56,203 nucleotides of DNA from IMG/VR virus record IMGVR_UViG_2778260992_000008, positions 1-56,203 of that record, one strand, 5' to 3'. The first letter of the stretch is position 1, and each line of letters starts with the position of its first letter. Under the pieces are notes generated by a model. That model made no database searches and was not told the origin of the DNA. It was given only the letters and a program-made list of their open reading frames with translations. Below, in pieces: positions 8,776 through 51,355 of this stretch. Origin of the DNA: a virus. Taxonomy: Duplodnaviria > Heunggongvirae > Uroviricota > Caudoviricetes. The translations under genes and the position numbers were made by a program.

Positions 8776-9098
8776 GCGAATCAAAGGAAGGAAGCAGGAA
8801 ACAAAAAGCACCTTCCAGGCACTTTAAAAATCAGGCTTAACACCTTGTCAACCGTGGAGTAACTCCCCGATGTGGGACCGAAAGCGGCACTGATAACAAG
8901 GCGCATGGGGTGTTTAAAGCGTTACATCCCCCACGAAACCGCACGCAAGGCGACGAGTCAGATCACTTGGATTGAGTGGTGTCACACCGGAAACGGCGAT
9001 GATTGCGGGATTAGTTGAACGATGTTAAGCCATTCTCTTTAACAATCTGGTCGCTACTGAAATGTAGCAAACATGATTTTAACTAAGGAGAAAAGATT

Positions 9099-16715: not shown

Positions 16716-16840
16716 TAATGGCGCTTTTTACTTTGTTCGGGTGTATCCATTTTGTATACTGCAATCAAACGAAATGCTCTTTAAAAATCCGGCCCCGCTG
16801 AAATGCGGAAACACATCACCTAACAGAATGAGATCAAATT

Positions 16841-20210: not shown

Positions 20211-20423
20211 ATGAAAAGTAACCGCAAGCGCCTTGTAAGGGCATACGACAAAGCATTAAAGGCTTTTGATGATCTGCGACACAATAAACGCCAGCGCCGT
20301 AAATGGGCGCGAATGCTTGTTAGTGAGTGGCATGATGAGGATTTTTTCCTTGAGGCCAGACACATGACGCAGGATGACGCCGACTTATTAGCTGATGATA
20401 ACGTTTACTATATGATGTGGTGA
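20211..20423 (+). CDS. hypothetical protein
   Basis: 70-aa ORF in tandem array. Confidence 0.35.
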   Translation: MKSNRKRLVRAYDKALKAFDDLRHNKRQRRKWARMLVSEWHDEDFFLEARHMTQDDADLLADDNVYYMMW

Positions 20424-22944: not shown

Positions 22945-22968
22945 AACGTGATCTACCCCGCAAAGTTT

Positions 22969-23008
22969 ACAAAATGGCATTGTTCAGGCAGTGCCATTTT
23001 GTTATAAA
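22969..23008 (+). promoter_or_regulatory. inverted repeat ACAAAATGGCA/TGCCATTTTGT overlapping a sigma70-like promoter
   Basis: 11-nt arms at 22969-22979 and 22992-23002; TTGTTC (22980-22985), 17-nt spacer, TATAAA (23003-23008). Confidence 0.5.
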
Positions 23009-27960: not shown

Positions 27961-29433
27961 ATGTTGACCATCAAAGAAAAGGTTATTCAGTCAAAATGCG
28001 AAAAAGATGGCCTGTTCTTCAACCGTTATTTCTACAAGCAGGCAAACGGTACGAAGATGTTAATATCAGGCCATCAAGTAGCCATCCATGATGCGCTACA
28101 ACGTGTTATTAATGGTGAAATTACCCGCCTCATCATTAACATCCCCCCAGGGTATGGTAAAACCGCGATCGCAACAATCAATATGATGGCGCGGTCCCTC
28201 GCAATAAGTCCCCGCACACGATTTCTTCACGTTTCCTATTCCGACAACCTTGCGTTACTCAATTCCTCGACAGTCAGAAACATGATTTGCTCGCAGGAGT
28301 ACCAGAAATTATGGCCCATGAAGATCCGTAATGACGCCAATTCTAAATCAATGTGGTGGACAGAACATGGCGGCGGGGTATATGCCGCATCATCACACGG
28401 TCAGATTACGGGTTTTCGTGCTGGTTACATGGAGCCAGGCTTTAACGGCGCGATGATTATCGACGACCCATTAAAGCCCGCTGACGCTTACTCTGATGTG
28501 ATGCGGGATAAAGTTAACACCAACTACAACGATACGCTTGCTTCACGTCTGGCTGTGCAAACAACGCCAGTCATCGTCATTATGCAGCGCATCCACTACG
28601 ATGATTTGTCCGGCTACCTGTTACGTGGCGGTAGTGGTGAGAAATGGCATCACCTTTGCCTGCCAGTGAAGATCGACAACAGTCTTGACTATTGGGATCT
28701 GTACCCGGAAAACGAATTCGCTATTCCTGTTCCTCACAACCTGCCGGACGGCTGGCTATGGTTGCATAAGCATAGTGATAAAGATGAATCAACTCTTAAA
28801 TCACATCGCCGAACATTCGAAGCTCAATATATGCAGCGTCCGCGCAAGTTCGATCAAGAGGGCGCATTGTGGTCGGAAGCAATGATAACCGCCGCGCACA
28901 GAATGCAGATAACGCAGGACAGGATCCGCACGGTGATAGCAATCGACCCGGCAACAACATCATCGGAAGCGTCGGACGAAACCGGGATCGTGGCGTGTTC
29001 CGCTTATGGTGGCGGCAAGTGCGCTCAGTATTCTGTAGACGGTGACTACTCAGGCCGCATGTCTCCTAACGAATGGGCGCAAGCCTCAATGAACGCTTAC
29101 AACATCCATGAAGCTGACGCGATAGTTATCGAAACCAACCAGGGCGGCGAAATGGCAGAGGCCACGCTACGTAACGCCGGATTCAAAGGCCGCATTGTTA
29201 AGGTGCACGCAAGCAAGGGTAAATTCGCCCGCGCCGAGCCAATATCAGCACTGTATGCACAAGGAAGGGTGGCCCACACAGGCAGCCTGTACATGCTGGA
29301 AAATCAAATGATGGAATACGTGCCAGCTACCGCCAAAAAATCCCCGGACCGACTCGACGCTATGGTGTGGGGCATCACTGAATTGAGTCAGCCTCAAGCT
29401 ATGGGCCTTATGTTACCGAAGCGCCTACGCTGA
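27961..29433 (+). CDS. terminase large subunit
   Basis: Walker A-like PPGYGKT, ATPase core and C-terminal nuclease-like region (IVIETNQGGEM); start ATG 27961 after GAGGTG. Confidence 0.85.
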   Translation: MLTIKEKVIQSKCEKDGLFFNRYFYKQANGTKMLISGHQVAIHDALQRVINGEITRLIINIPPGYGKTAIATINMMARSLAISPRTRFLHVSYSDNLALLNSSTVRNMICSQEYQKLWPMKIRNDANSKSMWWTEHGGGVYAASSHGQITGFRAGYMEPGFNGAMIIDDPLKPADAYSDVMRDKVNTNYNDTLASRLAVQTTPVIVIMQRIHYDDLSGYLLRGGSGEKWHHLCLPVKIDNSLDYWDLYPENEFAIPVPHNLPDGWLWLHKHSDKDESTLKSHRRTFEAQYMQRPRKFDQEGALWSEAMITAAHRMQITQDRIRTVIAIDPATTSSEASDETGIVACSAYGGGKCAQYSVDGDYSGRMSPNEWAQASMNAYNIHEADAIVIETNQGGEMAEATLRNAGFKGRIVKVHASKGKFARAEPISALYAQGRVAHTGSLYMLENQMMEYVPATAKKSPDRLDAMVWGITELSQPQAMGLMLPKRLR

Positions 29434-29517
29434 TTTTGAAATCTGCCTCACAATCCCTCACGAATTTTTCTATTTTTCGCGTAGCGACGCGTAAACGTGT
29501 ATTCAGGAGTAAACATT

Positions 29518-30891
29518 ATGCCTTCAAACCTTGAACTGGCGGTCAATGCTGCATTATCACAACGTCATGCGGCAATGGTCCGCTATGCTGCCGCTAACCC
29601 ATTCTCAATGGGTATTGATGCGAAACGTAACGCAGCATGGAGTGAATACGGATTCAAAGAAGAAATCACCTACACCGATTTATATAAGCTGTATCGTCGC
29701 GGTGGTATCGCTCACGGGGCCATCGAAAAGATAATTACCACTTGCTGGCGCACATCCCCGGTTATCATCGAGGGGACGGAAGATGAACGCGCCGAAAAGG
29801 AAACGCCCTGGGAAAAGGCGATTAAAAAGCAATTTGATAATCGTTTTTGGCGCACTATCTCAGAATGCGACCGTCGCCGCCTCATCGGTCGTTATGCCGG
29901 ACTATTAATCCACGTCAAAGATAACCAACCGTGGGATAAGCCCGTAACTAAGGGAACAGCGATCGAGAAGTTTACGCCTGTGTGGGCTGGCGCACTGACG
30001 CCGAAAGACTTCGAAGAGGATCCAGATAAACCGAACTATGGTCTGCCGACCTGGTGGGAGTACAAAGAACGCATCAACGGGAAGACCGTAGACCGGAAGA
30101 TCCACGCGGACCGGGTTTTCATCTTCGGTGACTATTCTGAAGACGCCATAGCCTTTCTTGAGCCGTCCTATAACGCCTTCGTTTCACTGGAGAAGGTGGA
30201 AGGGGGTAGCGGTGAGTCATTCCTTAAAAACGCAGCGCGTCAACTGGCTATCTCATTCGATAAGGAAATTGATTTTCGGTCCCTGGCTGCGACCTACGAT
30301 TGCGACGTTACGGAACTGCGCGAGAAGTTCAACGAGGCCACCGCTGAAATTAACAAGGGCAATGACGTGATGATGGCGTTACAAGGCGCTACCGTAAGCC
30401 CATTGGTCACAGCAGTAGCCGATCCCTCGGCAACCTATGACGTCAACCTGCAAACCGCCGCCGCTGGTATTGATATTCCTACTCGCATCCTCGTTGGGAA
30501 CCAGCAAGGTGAGCGCGCATCAACCGAAGATCTCCGCTACTTCAATAATCGCTGTATGACTCGACGCGAGGAAATCGGCGGTGAACTGGAAGACCTTTTC
30601 CGCAAACTGGCAGATCTTCGTCTGATTGCAATGCCTGCCGATATATCAGTGATATGGGACGACCTTAACGCCATGACTAAGGCCGAAATGCTGGAAGCGG
30701 CCCATAAGATGGCGCAAATCAATCAGGCGTGTTTAGCCACCGGGGAGCAAATATTCGACGGTGAAGAAATCCGCGAAGCTGCCGGATATGAAGGCCCGAC
30801 GCAGGAAGTGGAGCTGGAAGAAGAGGAAGACGAGGATGAAGATAAAGAAAATAATCAAAAAGATACCGCCGTCCGCAATAATGCCAAATAA
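29518..30891 (+). CDS. portal protein
   Basis: ~460-aa protein directly after terminase with acidic C-terminus; start ATG 29518 after AGGAG. Confidence 0.6.
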   Translation: MPSNLELAVNAALSQRHAAMVRYAAANPFSMGIDAKRNAAWSEYGFKEEITYTDLYKLYRRGGIAHGAIEKIITTCWRTSPVIIEGTEDERAEKETPWEKAIKKQFDNRFWRTISECDRRRLIGRYAGLLIHVKDNQPWDKPVTKGTAIEKFTPVWAGALTPKDFEEDPDKPNYGLPTWWEYKERINGKTVDRKIHADRVFIFGDYSEDAIAFLEPSYNAFVSLEKVEGGSGESFLKNAARQLAISFDKEIDFRSLAATYDCDVTELREKFNEATAEINKGNDVMMALQGATVSPLVTAVADPSATYDVNLQTAAAGIDIPTRILVGNQQGERASTEDLRYFNNRCMTRREEIGGELEDLFRKLADLRLIAMPADISVIWDDLNAMTKAEMLEAAHKMAQINQACLATGEQIFDGEEIREAAGYEGPTQEVELEEEEDEDEDKENNQKDTAVRNNAK

Positions 30892-37616: not shown

Positions 37617-38228
37617 TTAGTTCCAGTGGCAAGCATTTTTCACTTTGTTGATATGTTTTTCTAAGCCTTCGATGTTGAATGTTGCTTTTTCGATATAGCC
37701 CGCTTCCGGCAATGTTTCGATAATGAATTGTTTCTCGTTAAGCATTTTTTTAATCATCGGGATGGCTTTTTTGCCGTTCCATAATCCCAGGGCTTTATAG
37801 TTAGTTGCCCGTTGCCATTCTGCTTTCACCGCTTTATGTTCCCCGATCCGGTAGGTAACTTGGGTGGTATCGCCAGCATCCGCAATCATGTTATGCCAGG
37901 CTACAAACATTTTTGTTGTATTGGCTTTGCATTCGATAACTAATACCGGTTTATTTTTCTCTTTTGCTTTCAGTGCCGGGAAATCATCAAGCTGACCGTT
38001 AAATTTTACCGCTTTGACATGTAGCTGTACATTGGGTGTATCGTGCATATCGTCCTTACCTTCCCACACGGCCCACTGTTTCCCAATGTTATCCCGTTCC
38101 ATTTCTTGATGTTTTTCAGCTATTTCTTTTTCAAATTGTTTAATATTTTCAAGGCTTTTTGCTTGTTGTTCGCAACCAACCAGCCCAACCAGCGCCGCCA
38201 TTATTGCCACTTTCGCTAACCGTTTCAT
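37617..38228 (-). CDS. lipoprotein (accessory gene, opposite strand, inside tail module)
   Basis: Signal peptide plus lipobox MKRLAKVAIMAALVGLVGC; ATG 38228 with GGGG RBS; own promoter and terminator. Confidence 0.6.
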   Translation of the reverse strand: MKRLAKVAIMAALVGLVGCEQQAKSLENIKQFEKEIAEKHQEMERDNIGKQWAVWEGKDDMHDTPNVQLHVKAVKFNGQLDDFPALKAKEKNKPVLVIECKANTTKMFVAWHNMIADAGDTTQVTYRIGEHKAVKAEWQRATNYKALGLWNGKKAIPMIKKMLNEKQFIIETLPEAGYIEKATFNIEGLEKHINKVKNACHWN

Positions 38229-38276
38229 AAAACACCCCGTTTGCCTTGAATTACTAACCACTTCCTATAGCTTCTT

Positions 38277-38316
38277 TATACAAAATGGAGTCGTTAAAGC
38301 AAATCCATTTTGTATA
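38277..38316. promoter_or_regulatory. perfect inverted repeat TATACAAAATGGA-N14-TCCATTTTGTATA with divergent promoter elements
   Basis: 13-nt arms at 38277-38289 and 38304-38316; TATAAA-like hexamers at both ends, one per strand. Confidence 0.55.
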
Positions 38317-38354
38317 AAATAGTTACACAGATCACAAAAACGGAGATCAACGCT

Positions 38355-41237
38355 ATGGCTAAAAATGTAGGCGCGATTGAATACACGGTCGACGCCAAAA
38401 CCGGGTCGCTACTGGTTGCACAGAAAGAAGTAGACAAAGCAACCGGAGCGATGGAAAAAGACCTGCAACGGGTAGACACCGCCGCTGATAAGGTGAGTAA
38501 ATCCCTGGCTGGCTTATCCACGGTCGCCCGTGCGGTTGGCGCGGCACTGGTGACAAGAAAGATCATTGACTACGCCAACGCCTGGCAAGAAGTAAACAAT
38601 AAGCTGGTTAACTCCGTCCGGTCAAATGAATCACTGGAAGAAGTTACAAACCGGGTTTTTAAAGCCGCACAGAAATCAATGTCACCACTGGACGCCACCG
38701 CCGCGCTTTACTCCAAATTGGAACGCGCAACGCGTGACAGTGGACTAAGCGGGCGTGACCTGGCAAGCATCGTGGAAACGATTAACAAATCCTTTCAGGT
38801 GTCCGGTGCATCCGCAAGCGAAATGGAAGGCGGGATCAGACAATTGGCCCAGGCTTTGGGGTCTGGTGAATTGCGCGGCGATGAATTTAATAGCGTAATG
38901 GAGAACGCGCCACGCCTGGCGGAAGGTATCGCAAAATCAATGGGCGTATCCAGTACCGCATTACGTGAAATGGCGAAGGATGGCAAGATCACGAAAGATA
39001 TAATTATCGCAGCGGTCCGGGCGATGAAGTCCGAAGTCGATAAAGAATTCAGCAATATGGCGATCACCATGTCGGACGCCTTCACCGTCGCCACCAACAA
39101 CGCGACTAAGTATTTCGGTGAAAACTCCGTGATCCGTAGCGGGATTAACGCGTTTAACAGCACGCTGATTACCCTATCTGAAAACCTGGACGTTGTAACC
39201 GCCTCAGCCATCGCGCTTGGTGCTGTAATGGGTGGTCGGGCGTTGGGTGGCATTATCCAGGCAACGGCGGAAAACATCCGGCTGGCAGCCGCCAACCAGA
39301 AAGCAGCACAGGCCGCCGCGCAGCAGGCAGCAGCAGAAGCCAACCTGGCACGCCAGCAGCTACACACAGCCGCCGCCGGACTTAAAGCAGCATTGCAGGC
39401 AGAAGGGGAGGCCCGCGCCCACTACCAGGCCGCGCAGGGTACAAACGCCCACACCGCCGCGCTTGCTCGTCTCCGTGTAGCGCAAGCGCAAACCGCCGCC
39501 GCTTACACGGCTATGCGCACCGCTGCCACCACGGCTAACGCGGCAATCGTTGCTTCCGGTACAGCAGCAAAAGCCGCCAGTATCGGGATGCGGATCTTTA
39601 ATGGCGCGTTAGGGTTACTTGGTGGCCCCGCTGGCGCAATCATGACCGCCGCTATTTGCTTGGGTACGCTTATCCTTAACATGGAAAGCACCGAAGAGAA
39701 AGCCGCCAACGCAAAAGCCAAAATCGACGAATTGGCTATGTCGTTCGACGATATGAGCAAAAATGAACTGGAAGCGGCCTTAATTGAGATAAACAAACAA
39801 CTCAAAGACATTGAGGAAAACGCCCGGAAGGCAAAAGCCGAACTGGATCGTATGGTGAAAAACCGCGCTATCCTGGAAAAATTAGCACAGAGTGAGGATC
39901 CAGAAATTGCCGGGCCTGCAAAGGCGGCGTTAGGCATTGCCGATGACAATATGAAAACCTTAGAGGGTAAGGTTGACACAGCTAATAAAAACCTTGAAAA
40001 AGCCAACGAGAAAGCCGACGAAGCAAAAGCCCGCATTAATGGTACATACGTTCCGCCGAAACCTACCGGAACAGGAAGCGGCAGCGGTGGCAGCGGTGGC
40101 AAGGACGGGAAGGGCAAGAAACCGAAAAAATCTGATTGGGATAAGTTAGGCGATGAAGGCTTAAATATTTCCGACCAGTACAACAAAGACGCCGCCGCAA
40201 TGCGTAAACTTGGCGAAGAACAAAAAGCCCTGGATGCAGCGTACAAGCAAGGGAAGATCACTTATCTGGAATATACAGCCGCGAAGGAGGGCGCAAGCAA
40301 GGCACTGGCTGACACGCTGAAACAGTTACGCGAGGAAGAACAGCAAGCCAAATGGGACAGCCTTGTCTCTGATGAAGACAAGAAAAAAGGCCAGGTAGAC
40401 CCTATTCAGCAGTTGCAAAATGAATGGACTATCAGAAAGCAAATGCTCACTGATTTAGGCGCTACACAGGCCCAATTAAAAATGGAAGAGTTAGCCTATG
40501 AACAACAGCTAACCGCGCTCAAATGGGAACAATGGCAGGCACAAAGCGACACTAACGCGCTTATTGGTGATTGCGTCAACGGTTTAACAAGCGGCATGGG
40601 TAACGCCATTACCGGATTAGTCAATGGCACGCAATCCCTTAGCGAGATGTTTGCTAACCTGGGTAGTAACATCCTCGGCACGGTAGGTAACCGCTTATCT
40701 CAGATTGCAGCAAACTGGATAGCCGATCAGATCATGATGGAAAGCCAGAGCAAGGCAGCGCAAGCCAGTACCACGGCGGGCGCGGTAGCGGCGCAAGGTC
40801 AGATCGCAGCGGCAGCGGCCCCGGCAGCGGCGGCAACGGCGGCTTCAACTGGCGGTAGCTGGGCGGCGGCTGGTGCGGCGGCATTATCTGCGATCATGAC
40901 GCTGGCGACATCCATTTTTGGCGGCGGGCGTTATCATGGGGGTAGCGTAACTGGTGGCAACCTATACCGCGTGGGTGAGCATAACAAGCCAGAATTATTT
41001 CAGGCCACTAACGGGCGGCAATACATGATCCCCGGCGAAAACGGTCGCGTGGTAAGCAATAGCGCGATGGGTGGCGGCGGCATCAATATGCCTGTTAACA
41101 TCACAGTAAACACGACAAATGGTTTTGGCGAAGAAGACAGCAAGCGCCTACAACAGACAATCGAGAATACGGCAATGGGGATTATCAGGCGCGAAAGCCA
41201 ACGCCCTGGAGGCATGATCCAACCGCGCAAAAAATAA
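38355..41237 (+). CDS. tail tape measure protein
   Basis: ~960 aa, Ala-rich coiled-coil with Gly-rich C-terminal segment; ATG 38355 with RBS GGAG. Confidence 0.85.
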   Translation: MAKNVGAIEYTVDAKTGSLLVAQKEVDKATGAMEKDLQRVDTAADKVSKSLAGLSTVARAVGAALVTRKIIDYANAWQEVNNKLVNSVRSNESLEEVTNRVFKAAQKSMSPLDATAALYSKLERATRDSGLSGRDLASIVETINKSFQVSGASASEMEGGIRQLAQALGSGELRGDEFNSVMENAPRLAEGIAKSMGVSSTALREMAKDGKITKDIIIAAVRAMKSEVDKEFSNMAITMSDAFTVATNNATKYFGENSVIRSGINAFNSTLITLSENLDVVTASAIALGAVMGGRALGGIIQATAENIRLAAANQKAAQAAAQQAAAEANLARQQLHTAAAGLKAALQAEGEARAHYQAAQGTNAHTAALARLRVAQAQTAAAYTAMRTAATTANAAIVASGTAAKAASIGMRIFNGALGLLGGPAGAIMTAAICLGTLILNMESTEEKAANAKAKIDELAMSFDDMSKNELEAALIEINKQLKDIEENARKAKAELDRMVKNRAILEKLAQSEDPEIAGPAKAALGIADDNMKTLEGKVDTANKNLEKANEKADEAKARINGTYVPPKPTGTGSGSGGSGGKDGKGKKPKKSDWDKLGDEGLNISDQYNKDAAAMRKLGEEQKALDAAYKQGKITYLEYTAAKEGASKALADTLKQLREEEQQAKWDSLVSDEDKKKGQVDPIQQLQNEWTIRKQMLTDLGATQAQLKMEELAYEQQLTALKWEQWQAQSDTNALIGDCVNGLTSGMGNAITGLVNGTQSLSEMFANLGSNILGTVGNRLSQIAANWIADQIMMESQSKAAQASTTAGAVAAQGQIAAAAAPAAAATAASTGGSWAAAGAAALSAIMTLATSIFGGGRYHGGSVTGGNLYRVGEHNKPELFQATNGRQYMIPGENGRVVSNSAMGGGGINMPVNITVNTTNGFGEEDSKRLQQTIENTAMGIIRRESQRPGGMIQPRKK

Positions 41238-41242
41238 AATAA

Positions 41243-41270
41243 CCCCCGGCGAAAGCTGGGGGTTTTCTTT
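41243..41270. terminator. bidirectional hairpin terminator after tape measure gene
   Basis: CCCCCGGC-GAAA-GCTGGGGG followed by TTTTCTTT; T-rich on the opposite strand too. Confidence 0.6.
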
Positions 41271-41539: not shown

Positions 41540-41689
41540 TCATCTTCCATATCTCACCCCATCGCGCTTATAAGGCTTGTTATCAGCAAACGGGATTAAC
41601 GCATCGTTTGCCACCTGGCGATTAAACCAATCTTTCAGGACAACCAGGGAAAACCGGATGCCGTAGCTATGTAATTCGTGCCATTTCAT
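41540..41689 (-). CDS. small hypothetical protein (49 aa)
   Basis: ATG overlaps stop of upstream 84-aa gene (ATGA). Confidence 0.25.
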   Translation of the reverse strand: MKWHELHSYGIRFSLVVLKDWFNRQVANDALIPFADNKPYKRDGVRYGR

Positions 41690-41940
41690 TTATGACACCC
41701 CCGCACGCCGCATAATTCATTGTATTTATGATGCTCAACAATCAACCAAACTTTTAGATCCTGGCTGTAAAGCCGCCAATCAGGGTTGATATCGAATTTA
41801 AAACCATAACCATCTCGTAACTTTTTGGGGTGGGCTTCTTTATTTAGGAAAGCATTTAATAAAGCCTTACCCTTTTTGATGATCCGGTCCTGCGCGTTTT
41901 TTTGTGCTTTCAAATTTTTATCAATCGCTACCAGTTTCAT
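41686..41940 (-). CDS. hypothetical basic protein (84 aa)
   Basis: ORF in track; second gene of a tightly packed minus-strand cassette. Confidence 0.45.
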   Translation of the reverse strand: MKLVAIDKNLKAQKNAQDRIIKKGKALLNAFLNKEAHPKKLRDGYGFKFDINPDWRLYSQDLKVWLIVEHHKYNELCGVRGCHK

Positions 41941-41958: not shown

Positions 41959-42126
41959 TTAGTTGACCGCTTTCAGGTAAAAATCCCGGTATTCGTTTTC
42001 CTTCACGTTCATGTAGAATTGGCCCATTTTAAATGCATCGTCGAAGCCTTTAACGATCGCCACTTCCACTTGTTCGAATGCGTCGTTAAGCATCACGACC
42101 GCGTAGTGTTTATCGTTGCGTTTCAT
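41959..42126 (-). CDS. small hypothetical protein (55 aa)
   Basis: ATG 42126 preceded by AAGGAGG; track ORF 41959-42201 begins further upstream. Confidence 0.4.
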   Translation of the reverse strand: MKRNDKHYAVVMLNDAFEQVEVAIVKGFDDAFKMGQFYMNVKENEYRDFYLKAVN

Positions 42127-42295
42127 CTTGGGCCTCCTTTGTTGGTACTGCTTTTCTTCTTGCTTTCTGTATACATCTTGTTGCGTCCTGTGTGAAGCCA
42201 TTTTGTAAACTGGTTATAATTCTTGTGATGAAGTTCTCATTTTTCGCGTAGAAGCGCGTAAAGATGTACACAAAATGTAACTTATAGGGGGAATT

Positions 42296-42649
42296 ATGCC
42301 GGAAGTGTTTACCTGGACGCCGCAGCGTAGCTACAGCGTAACCAGGGAGCCGAACGTTTCAGTTATTAAGCTGGGTGATGGTTATGAACAAAGGCAGACA
42401 AAAGGGATTAACCCTTTGCTTGATAGCTATAGCCTTGTCTTTAAGGGTACAAGCGCCGGATGCGGTGACGCTGGCAATCCAGCGATCCAGGCGGAGGCGT
42501 TTTTACGGGCGCGCGGCGCGGTCGAGGCGTTTTACTGGACGCCATCAATGGATGGGGAGCAAAGGCTTTTTGTCTGCCGAAAATGGAACATGACAAAGGA
42601 TGGCCCTGTGTTCACGCTAACCGCGACGTTTGAGCAAGTGATGAATTAA
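42296..42649 (+). CDS. minor tail protein M (lambda gpM-like)
   Basis: GDGYEQRQ...YSLVFKG...EAFLRARGAVEAFYWTP...FTLTATFEQVMN parallels lambda M. Confidence 0.8.
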   Translation: MPEVFTWTPQRSYSVTREPNVSVIKLGDGYEQRQTKGINPLLDSYSLVFKGTSAGCGDAGNPAIQAEAFLRARGAVEAFYWTPSMDGEQRLFVCRKWNMTKDGPVFTLTATFEQVMN

Positions 42650-42846: not shown

Positions 42847-42933
42847 ATGCTGGTTGATGGCTTAGTAATGGTATTTATTATCGCGGTAAGTATGGCTATT
42901 TTTTACGAAATCGATAGTCGGAACGACAAATAA
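42847..42933 (+). CDS. small hydrophobic peptide (28 aa)
   Basis: MLVDGLVMVFIIAVSMAIFYEIDSRNDK; ends just before terminator. Confidence 0.3.
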   Translation: MLVDGLVMVFIIAVSMAIFYEIDSRNDK

Positions 42934-42940
42934 AATAACA

Positions 42941-42961
42941 CCCCGCCGAAGCGGGGTTTTT
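42941..42961. terminator. bidirectional hairpin terminator
   Basis: CCCCGC-CGAA-GCGGGG followed by TTTTTCG; between convergent plus and minus genes. Confidence 0.6.
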
Positions 42962-44061: not shown

Positions 44062-44106
44062 GTATGATTTGGCGTGACGCAGATCACAAAATCAGAAGGT
44101 GAGAAA

Positions 44107-51196: not shown

Positions 51197-51355
51197 TGTC
51201 TTACCCTCCGTTGTTTCGTTGGTTGTAGTATCCACAAACTGTATTTTCTCAACATTGATATAAATCAACAAATACATTTTGTATAAACCAAAAATGTAAC
51301 ATAGATCACAAAATGGTAGAATTATTCCGTTAATTAACATAATGGAGTCATTGCA

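What the first reader, a model, noticed from the sequence alone, without database searches (positions are those of the whole stretch)
29474..29496. Shared TTTTTCGCGTAG-N3-GCGTAAA motif upstream of portal and gene M
TTTTTCGCGTAGCGACGCGTAAACG (29474-29496) and TTTTTCGCGTAGAAGCGCGTAAAG (42240-42263) are near-identical imperfect palindromes, each about 20-30 nt before a late gene start. They may be a second class of late regulatory site.
Basis: seen in the sequence. Interest (0 to 1): 0.35.

Follow-up and report, generated by a model that had tools for sequence, protein, structure and literature searches.

The report
Conserved leader hairpin before portal and M
A 23-base sequence that can fold into a small hairpin sits just upstream of two late genes (portal and tail-tip protein M) of an mEp021-like E. 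coli phage. It is almost unchanged in every relative examined, so something probably recognises it, but what binds it and what it does are unknown.

Summary
TTTTTCGCGTAG-N3-CGCGTAAA occurs exactly twice in the window, at 29473-29495 and 42240-42262, where 0.04 matches are expected by chance. The copies lie 22 nt before the portal ATG and 33 nt before the gene M ATG.

The window is a phage of the mEpimmI group (relatives of mEp021). Both copies are present at the homologous positions in every relative examined: 3 cultured phages, 1 E. coli prophage and about 55 IMG/VR or metagenome loci. The 20 fixed bases are 98-100% identical between relatives, against 83-88% for the upstream flanks. The motif is absent from more distant portal and M homologues.

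It is not a sigma-70 promoter or an activator site. At gene M it lies 19 nt downstream of an invariant TATAAT, so it is inside the transcribed leader. It is also not a terminator, not this phage's boxB, not a Q-lambda QBE, and not any Rfam family.

It folds as a bulged 10-bp stem-loop on the sense strand. The few natural substitutions keep the pairing through G-U, and one variant has a 1-nt deletion in the loop. No compensatory double changes were seen.

Best reading (about 0.4): an RNA stem-loop in the leader that a sequence-specific factor recognises, inside a possibly duplicated leader cassette. Main rival (about 0.3): a DNA operator. The function is untested, so interest is modest.

The parts
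29473..29495 (+). Site 1 core motif, TTTTTCGCGTAG-CGA-CGCGTAAA, between the terL stop (29433) and the portal start
   Evidence: Conserved in 21 unique portal leaders with no variable core column out of 20.
29471..29499 (+). Site 1 predicted stem-loop. The stem is CGCG(U)/(A)CGCG at 29478-29491, extended by U-A pairs across a bulged U.
   Evidence: -6.5 kcal/mol, not better than shuffles (z 0.15). The structure is inferred by homology with site 2.
29449..29454 (+). CACAAT, a -10-like hexamer 18 nt upstream of site 1. It is collinear with the TATAAT of site 2 and may be a vestige of a promoter.
   Evidence: Alignment. The flank-only score is not significant (89 of 1000 shuffles reach it). Several relatives have CACAAC. 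The promoter scan makes no call here.
29505..29520 (+). Portal ribosome-binding site: AGGAG at 29505-29509 and ATG at 29518-29520. An in-frame GTG at 29497 (ATG in most relatives) directly follows the motif.
   Evidence: PGAP starts the RM9245 portal at the SD-preceded ATG.
42240..42262 (+). Site 2 core motif, TTTTTCGCGTAG-AAG-CGCGTAAA, in the leader of gene M
   Evidence: Conserved in 27 to 34 unique M leaders. Four of 20 core columns carry a rare variant.
42238..42266 (+). Site 2 predicted bulged stem-loop of 10-12 bp with loop (U)AGAA(G)
   Evidence: -11.8 kcal/mol, z -3.5, 0 of 200 shuffles as stable. The minus strand gives only -6.7. Consensus structure.
42215..42220 (+). Invariant TATAAT, the probable -10 of a promoter for gene M. 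The inferred start is near 42227-42228, which puts the motif at about +13 to +35.
   Evidence: Searches show it is invariant in all leaders. Promoter activity itself is inferred, and the scan makes no call because no -35 is present.
42198..42206 (+). CCATTTTGT, one copy of the other repeated motif of this genome, just upstream of the TATAAT
42287..42298 (+). Gene M ribosome-binding site: GGGGG at 42287-42291 and ATG at 42296-42298

Best explanation
The motif is the core of a small, sequence-specific stem-loop in the 5' leader RNA of the portal and gene M messages. Four C-G/G-C pairs are topped by a UAGNNN loop. Across a bulged U, the stem is extended by U-A and U-G pairs formed between the 5' U-run and the 3' AAA.

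The two copies may belong to a duplicated leader cassette of about 90 bp with this layout: CCATTTTGT-like box, -10-like hexamer, 18-19 nt, hairpin, ATRTA, Shine-Dalgarno. In this lineage a copy sits at the start of the head module and another at the start of the tail-tip module.

The same 20 bases are held fixed at both sites while their flanks have diverged. The most likely reason is that one trans-acting factor, probably a phage protein, recognises the hairpin and sets the stability or translation of the two messages.

Shown: the repeat, its conservation, its position inside the leader, and its ability to fold.
Inferred: that it acts as RNA, that a factor binds it, and the direction of any effect.
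For: 1. The match is exact and non-random.

2. Both copies are present in mEp021, mEp554, MagusPhagus and the RM9245 prophage, two per genome. They are also present in all 31 IMG/VR M loci and all 24 close IMG/VR portal loci, and in 20 metagenome loci that were fetched by their flanks only.

3. Core identity is 0.98-1.00. The 25 nt upstream are 0.83-0.85 identical and the N3 triplet 0.78-0.90. This is purifying selection on sequence, not only on shape.

4. The element lies in the transcribed, untranslated leader, on the sense strand at both sites. At gene M it is downstream of an invariant TATAAT.

5. RNAalifold returns a 10-pair bulged helix with 99.6% of cells paired.

6. All five distinct transitions seen at paired positions keep the pair through G-U or U-A, which works only on the + strand. 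Those at Watson-Crick pairs are C21>U, C31>U, A15>G and A40>G; the fifth is G39>A at a G-U pair. My estimate of the chance of this is about 0.05.

7. Two loci (L017, L022) carry a 1-nt deletion in the loop. A hairpin tolerates this, but it changes the spacing of DNA half-sites.

8. At site 2 the + strand folds much better than the - strand and better than shuffles.
Against: - No pair shows a compensatory double change, so the structure is not proven.
- Site 1 folds no better than shuffled sequence.
- The conserved UAG next to a free N3 fits two tandem DNA half-sites (CGCGTAG / CGCGTAA, 10-bp period) at least as neatly as it fits a loop.
- The distance to the -10-like hexamer is the same at both sites (18-19 nt), while the distance to the SD differs (9 versus 24 nt). 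This hints at a promoter-proximal or DNA-level role.
- No binding protein was identified. The ORFs tried have no Pfam domain.
- There are no expression data.
Confidence: 0.4

Rival explanations
1. It is a DNA operator. A dimeric or tandem-binding protein, from the phage or the host, recognises the double-stranded site either as an inverted repeat (TTTWCGCG-N6-CGCGWAAA) or as two direct CGCGTAR half-sites one helical turn apart. Because the site lies at about +13 to +35 of the M promoter and inside the terL-portal gap, the bound protein would act as a repressor or roadblock.
For: - Twenty fixed bases and a free 3-bp spacer are typical of a protein-DNA site.
- The spacing to the -10-like hexamer is the same at both sites.
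- The core sequence is identical at two sites whose flanks have diverged.
- No compensatory changes were seen.
Against: - The only indel seen changes the half-site spacing.
- All transitions seen at Watson-Crick-paired positions are of the kind that preserves an RNA pair.
- There are only two copies, and none in the immunity region, so the binder would not be the prophage repressor.
- No candidate DNA-binding protein was found.
- The site does not fit the NagC/Mlc geometry.
Confidence: 0.3
2. It is a transcription-elongation signal in the nascent RNA or the non-template strand. This could be a nut-like site (a pyrimidine-rich boxA-like stretch, TTCTCATTT or TTCTATTT, followed by a hairpin), or a promoter-proximal pause site with a -10-like (C/T)ATTTT at about +11. 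Such a site would load or tune an antitermination factor.
For: - The layout resembles this phage's own nutR1 and nutR2, which have a boxA, then a few nt, then a 4-5 bp hairpin with a 6-nt loop.
- Site 2 lies just downstream of a promoter.
- Intrinsic terminators follow both units, for example at 41241-41264 and 42928-42961.
- The phage is Nus-dependent and has an N-like and a Q-like protein (PMC11893012).
Against: - The loops UAGAAG and UAGCAA differ from the UGAAAU loops of the phage's boxB.
- The boxA-like stretch varies among relatives: TCTCA, TATCA, TCTTA, TCTAA.
- The Q here belongs to the Q-lambda family (PF03589). Its binding element lies upstream of the pause element, not downstream.
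- Site 1 has no recognisable promoter.
Confidence: 0.1
3. It is a purely structural RNA hairpin that needs no specific binder. It would act as a 5' stabiliser after RNase E cuts in the U-rich stretch just upstream, uncoupling portal and M message levels from the upstream RNA.
For: - The AU-rich single-stranded run UUCUAUUUUU or UCUCAUUUUU is immediately followed by a GC-clamped stem.
- The position is between cistrons that are needed in different amounts.
Against: - A stability hairpin does not need the same 20 bases at two sites, or an invariant UAG in the loop. Such hairpins normally drift and covary.
- The stem is short and, at site 1, weak.
Confidence: 0.1
4. It is a late promoter or activator-binding site.
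For: It lies upstream of two late genes and is conserved.
Against: - No -35/-10 pair is found at or after the motif.
- At site 1 the SD begins 9 nt after the motif, leaving no room for a -10 and a leader.
- At site 2 the motif lies downstream of the conserved TATAAT.
Confidence: 0.05
5. It has no function of its own. It would be a remnant of a duplicated cassette or recombination joint, kept alike by gene conversion.
For: - The two sites align collinearly over about 90 bp.
- The N3 types swap between sites: L002 site 2 has CAA and L094 site 1 has AAG.
- Inserts occur next to both sites: an HNH gene in L185 and a 70-bp insert in L084.
Against: - The core is far better conserved than the rest of the cassette in every genome.
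- Gene conversion would homogenise the flanks as well.
- Mosaic breakpoints do not fall at the motif.
Confidence: 0.05

Closest known systems
RNA operator hairpins of phages: lambda/P22 boxB bound by N, the Mu com-mom hairpin bound by Com, and the MS2 coat-protein operator
   Same: A short sense-strand stem-loop in an mRNA leader, with fixed stem and loop bases, placed near a start site. More than one copy per genome shares a single recogniser, as nutL and nutR do.
   Different: - The loop and stem sequences are unrelated to this phage's own boxB (UGAAAU loops).
- No binding protein is known.
- No effect on termination or translation has been shown.
Stoperators of mycobacteriophage L5 and scattered C1 operators of P1 (from my own knowledge of those systems)
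   Same: Short conserved sites in intergenic gaps inside operons, downstream of promoters, in one orientation relative to transcription.
   Different: - Those sites occur in tens of copies and match the immunity operators.
- Here there are only two copies and none in the immunity region.
PeSL cassettes (promoter-early plus stem-loop) of T4-type phages (from my own knowledge)
   Same: A repeated intergenic cassette that joins a promoter-like element to a stem-loop, found at module borders next to variable inserts.
   Different: - There are only two copies, in a temperate siphovirus.
- The hairpin lies downstream of the -10 rather than upstream.
- No sign of cassette-mediated shuffling was seen.
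Q-lambda qut site (Q-binding element plus sigma-dependent pause element)
   Same: A promoter-proximal element in a late transcription unit of a phage that encodes a Q-lambda-family protein. A -10-like (C/T)ATTTT lies at about +11.
   Different: The Q-binding element lies upstream of the pause element, whereas this motif lies downstream of it. Site 1 has no promoter.

Membership tests
Sigma-70 promoter or activator site | -35 and -10 hexamers 16-18 bp apart, with room for a start site and leader before the SD | tested here: not met
   The scans find none at either site. The SD starts 9 nt after site 1. Site 2 lies downstream of the invariant TATAAT.
Intrinsic terminator | GC-rich hairpin followed by a U-run on the transcribed strand | tested here: not met
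   The T-run precedes the stem and AAA follows it on the + strand. On the - strand the stem is followed by A5. The scans make no call here.
Lambda-type nut site | boxB hairpin with the loop recognised by the phage's N-like protein | tested here: not met
   This phage's boxB sites are GCUAC-UGAAAU-GUAGC and CCGC-UGAAAU-GCGG. The motif loops are UAGCGA, UAGCAA or UAGAAG.
Lambda-type nut site | Conserved boxA (GCUCUUUA-like) a few nt upstream of boxB | tested here: inconclusive
   TTCTCATTT and TTCTATTT resemble TTCTCTTTA of nutR1, but they vary among relatives.
Q-lambda qut site | Q-binding element upstream of a sigma-dependent pause element at a late promoter | tested here: not met
   The motif lies downstream of the -10-like element. 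Geometry taken from 10.1101/651190. The Q family was identified.
Stoperator or scattered repressor operator | Many copies across the genome that match the operators of the immunity region | tested here: not met
   There are two copies only, and none between 7600 and 9100.
Structured RNA element (generic) | Helix supported by compensatory base changes | tested here: inconclusive
   No pair changes on both sides. Five one-sided changes all keep pairing, and 99.6% of cells are paired.
Any Rfam family | Match to a curated covariance model | tested here: not met
   There is no hit at gathering score in the window. The E<=10 search of the two regions returns only one unrelated hit, snR35 at E 0.33.
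NagC/Mlc operator (host) | TT and AA at positions -6,-5 and +5,+6 around the dyad | tested here: not met
   The motif has CGCG at those positions. Geometry taken from PMC4288165.
RfaH ops site | GGCGGTAG core in the non-template strand (consensus recalled from memory) | tested here: not met
   The motif reads TCGCGTAG and lacks the GG before TAG. The consensus itself was not checked here.
Upstream ORF or terL read-through extension | Conserved start codon and reading frame | tested here: not met
   The frames end in ...FFA* at the motif's TAG. However, start codons are missing in relatives, and 1-nt indels occur upstream.

The most novel reading that the evidence does not exclude
The hairpin is the RNA target of a still unidentified phage protein. 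The only lead is weak: the 70-residue basic ORF at 20211-20423 has an arginine-rich stretch. Through two identical operators, this protein would jointly control synthesis of the two assembly initiators, the portal for heads and gpM for tail tips. That would be a dedicated post-transcriptional or nut-like late control layer, in addition to N-like and Q-like antitermination.
Probability: 0.15. Interest if true: 0.55.

Novelty: new member of a known kind. Interest (0 to 1): 0.3.

Why it matters
mEpimmI phages are a recently described group of gut coliphages (PMC11893012). The paper says they are common in the gut; here only 35 of 5,426 complete E. coli genomes carry the gene M leader module. Their late gene control has not been studied, and the paper describes only the N-like system and its nut sites.

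A 20-base element held fixed at two sites is a concrete handle. It can be used as bait to find its binder, and mutated to test whether head and tail-tip initiator genes are co-regulated after transcription starts.

If it turns out to be an ordinary leader hairpin or operator, it still improves annotation of these prophages, for example the portal start and an internal promoter for gene M.

Tried and rejected
- Promoter or terminator: the scans find nothing at either site.
- Rfam: no family matches.
- Further or diverged copies: a covariance model finds none in the window. It also finds none in 98 loci of more distant portal or M relatives. Portals at 51-63% identity follow terL without the motif, usually after a short spacer. 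M homologues at 70-75% identity lack it.
- Exact-pattern scan of IMG/VR: 77 of 81 hits are the two known sites. Two of the other four (L120, L183) are those same sites with slightly different flanks. The remaining two (L140, L184) have unrelated flanks and look like chance.
- Metagenome scan anchored on the flanks only: no new core variants.
- Antisense partner: no complementary stretch of 11 nt or more elsewhere in the window.
- CGCG avoidance or methylation idea: CGCG is not depleted, with 356 seen against 378 expected.
- Trans-factor hunt: Pfam gives nothing for 20 ORFs between Q and terS. The neighbouring reverse-strand genes are a ParE-like toxin module, an antirepressor fragment and ORFs of unknown function. 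They vary among relatives while the motif does not.
- Host factors: the NagC/Mlc geometry does not fit. PurR, CpxR, RfaH ops and sigma-28, -54 and -E consensus sequences, recalled from memory, do not fit either. These were not tested further.
- uORF or terL read-through peptide (...FFA*): rejected because start codons are missing and indels occur.
- Literature: the motif is not mentioned in the mEpimmI paper, and the sequence strings return only unrelated papers.

Full report
**What the window is.** A 3-kb stretch around site 1 is 82-85% identical to seven E. coli phages: MagusPhagus, mEp021, mEp010, mEp013, mEp044, mEp515 and mEp554. These belong to the mEpimmI group, described as Nus-dependent, non-lambdoid temperate siphoviruses (PMC11893012). 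ORF 29518-30891 is a portal (PF06381) and ORF 42296-42649 is a lambda gpM-type minor tail protein (PF05939). terL ends at 29433.

**The observation.** TTTTTCGCGTAG-N3-CGCGTAAA is present at 29473-29495 and 42240-42262, both on the + strand. No other match exists on either strand at up to 3 mismatches. Shuffles give 0.04 matches on average. The first coordinate in the finding is one base too high. The motif ends 22 nt before the portal ATG and 33 nt before the M ATG.

It is an imperfect palindrome with arms TTT(T)CGCG and CGCG(T)AAA. It is equally a direct repeat of CGCGTAR with a 10-bp period. CGCG itself is not unusual in this genome.

**Conservation.**
- Cultured phages and a prophage: mEp021 has both copies at the homologous places. 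So do mEp554, MagusPhagus and a prophage of E. coli RM9245. Each has exactly two copies in the 29-43 kb examined.
- Loci fetched through the M protein: all 31 mEpimmI-type loci carry the motif about 55 nt before M.
- Loci fetched through the portal protein: all 24 close relatives carry it.
- Metagenome scan anchored only on the flanks: 20 more M leaders, all with the intact motif.
- Numbers: the 20 specified bases are 0.98 (M) and 1.00 (portal) identical on average between unique sequences. The 25 nt upstream are 0.83-0.85 identical and the N3 triplet 0.78-0.90.
- Variants outside N3: C>T at the first C of either CGCG, A>G in TAG, loss of one T of the T-run, and a 1-nt deletion in N3.
- Limits of distribution: an exact-pattern scan of IMG/VR gives 81 matches. 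Of these, 77 were classed automatically as the two known sites, two more are those same sites with slightly different flanks, and two look like chance. Prophages with portals 51-63% identical, in about 40 other species, lack the motif; in most of them the portal follows terL after a short spacer. M homologues at 70-75% identity lack it too.

The element is therefore a lineage-specific addition under strong purifying selection.

**Context.** Between the tape-measure gene and M lie a strong terminator (41241-41264) and reverse-strand genes. These include a ParE-like toxin with a small upstream partner. M therefore needs its own promoter or antiterminated read-through.

An invariant TATAAT (42215-42220) lies 19 nt upstream of the motif and is preceded by CCATTTTGT. 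A start about 7 nt after the TATAAT would put the motif at roughly +13 to +35. This step is inferred, because the promoter scan finds no -35.

At site 1 no promoter is called. A CACAAT lies 18 nt upstream, and the two regions align collinearly over about 90 bp. The flanks alone are not significantly similar: 89 of 1000 shuffles reach the upstream score and 49 of 1000 the downstream score. I therefore treat a duplicated leader cassette as likely but unproven.

**RNA or DNA.** Folding gives a stem of four G-C pairs, a 4-6 nt loop, a bulged U, and 3-7 further U-A or U-G pairs.
- Site 2: -11.8 kcal/mol, z -3.5. Its minus strand gives -6.7.
- Site 1: -6.5 kcal/mol, no better than shuffles.

On 26 unique M leaders, RNAalifold returns a 10-pair helix with 99.6% of cells paired. 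No pair changes on both sides.

Five distinct transitions at paired positions all keep the pair, through G-U or U-A on the + strand. One transversion breaks a pair. Eleven of the 20 paired positions would tolerate a transition, so five out of five has a chance of about 0.05 (my own estimate). The loop deletion in L017 and L022 suits a hairpin and shifts the DNA half-site spacing.

Against the RNA reading:
- UAG in the loop is fixed while the next three bases are free. This is exactly what two tandem DNA half-sites, CGCGTAG and CGCGTAA, would give.
- The distance to the -10-like hexamer is the same at both sites, while the distance to the SD is not.

The evidence leans to RNA but does not decide.

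**What it is not.**
- It is not a terminator, because the U-run is on the wrong side of the stem.
- It is not a promoter.
- It is not an Rfam family.
- It is not this phage's boxB. nutR1 at about 9033-9070 and nutR2 at about 16775-16805 have UGAAAU loops.
- It is not a Q-lambda-type Q-binding element. The Q here is PF03589, and that element lies upstream of the pause element.
- It is not a NagC/Mlc site.
- It is not a translated uORF or terL extension.
- It is not paired with an antisense sequence elsewhere in the window.

**Mechanism.** The strongest inference is that one sequence-specific factor recognises both copies. Two sites with diverged flanks keep the same 20 bases in every genome.

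I rate a leader RNA stem-loop operator controlling message stability or translation at about 0.4. A DNA operator or roadblock is at about 0.3. A nut-like or pause element is at 0.1, and a purely structural stabiliser hairpin at 0.1. A promoter/activator site and a functionless remnant are at 0.05 each.

No binder was found. ORFs between Q and the lysis genes have no Pfam domains. A basic 70-aa ORF with an arginine-rich stretch (20211-20423) is only a lead.

**Novelty.** The mEpimmI paper describes the repressor, the integrases, the N-like Gp17 and three nut sites, but nothing on late control or on this motif. Sequence-string searches of the literature find nothing relevant. The element is undescribed, but it is of a familiar kind: a conserved cis element in a leader. 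It is a useful experimental handle of modest interest.

Noticed in passing
window 3979, 7982, 8737, 9291, 16683, 16747, 22969, 22994, 38280, 38305, 42198, 43992, 51308: CCATTTTGT/ACAAAATGG occurs 13 times exactly, and 36 times at up to 1 mismatch against 22 expected. It forms inverted pairs, ACAAAATGG-N16-CCATTTTGT, at 22968-23002 and 38279-38313. It abuts -10-like TATAAA, TATACT or TATAAT boxes before nutR2, the tape-measure gene, M, L and the fibre gene. It also sits next to the -35 of the rightward early promoter. It is probably the site of one DNA-binding protein, or a special promoter class, that controls many scattered units. It is not described in PMC11893012.
   Followed up: partly
window 38330-38345, 44078-44090, 51300-51315: A shared leader box, (C/T)AGATCACAAAA, lies upstream of the tape-measure, L and fibre genes (repeat family D11).
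   Followed up: no
window 41686-41940 (-) and 41959-42126 (-): A ParE-like toxin (PF24732) with a 55-aa upstream partner is inserted in reverse orientation between the tape-measure gene and M. A likely promoter, TTCACA-N17-TATACA, lies on the minus strand at about 42167-42195. This insert varies among relatives.
   Followed up: partly
window 37617-38261 (-): A reverse-strand ORF with a VasI/TagO-like type VI secretion domain (PF11319) lies inside the tail gene cluster.
   Followed up: no
window 41232-41265 and 42928-42961: Two paralogous strong terminators, AAATAAAATAAC-hairpin-TTT, follow the tape-measure gene and the M operon. They are 79% identical.
   Followed up: no
L185 (IMGVR_UViG_2695420423_000006), minus strand around 4500: An HNH endonuclease gene is inserted between the motif-bearing leader and gene M and takes over the leader.
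   Followed up: partly
L084 1853-1920 (also L095, L097): A palindrome-rich insert of about 70 bp (TTGATTATTATCAA, CTTCGAAAAATTTTCGAAG) lies between the terL stop and the site 1 module.
   Followed up: no
window 29497-29520; L001 21498-21524: An in-frame ATG (GTG in the window) directly follows the motif, 7 codons before the SD-preceded portal ATG. In mEp021 the second ATG is ATA, and GenBank starts the portal at the upstream ATG. The true portal start, or two isoforms, is an open question.
   Followed up: partly
L263 1601-2974 and many proteins: RefSeq names these PF06381 portal proteins 'anti-CBASS protein Acb1 family protein', which looks like a naming error that has spread.
   Followed up: no
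whole window: GATC (285 seen against 192 expected) and CCWGG (152 against 67) are over-represented. This fits the two phage-encoded DNA methyltransferases.
   Followed up: no
window 20211-20423 (+): A 70-aa ORF downstream of Q has a basic N-terminal half with an arginine-rich stretch (RHNKRQRRKWAR). It could bind nucleic acid. It has no Pfam match.
   Followed up: partly
window 42277-42286: GTAACTTATA, just before the M Shine-Dalgarno, is conserved and resembles the T7 gene 10 'epsilon' translational enhancer TTAACTTTA. The resemblance is from memory.
   Followed up: no
window 9033-9070 and 16775-16805: nutR1 has boxA TTCTCTTTAACAA and boxB GCTAC-TGAAAT-GTAGC. nutR2 has boxA TGCTCTTTAAAAA and boxB CCGC-TGAAAT-GCGG. 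Both match the sites reported for mEp021.
   Followed up: partly
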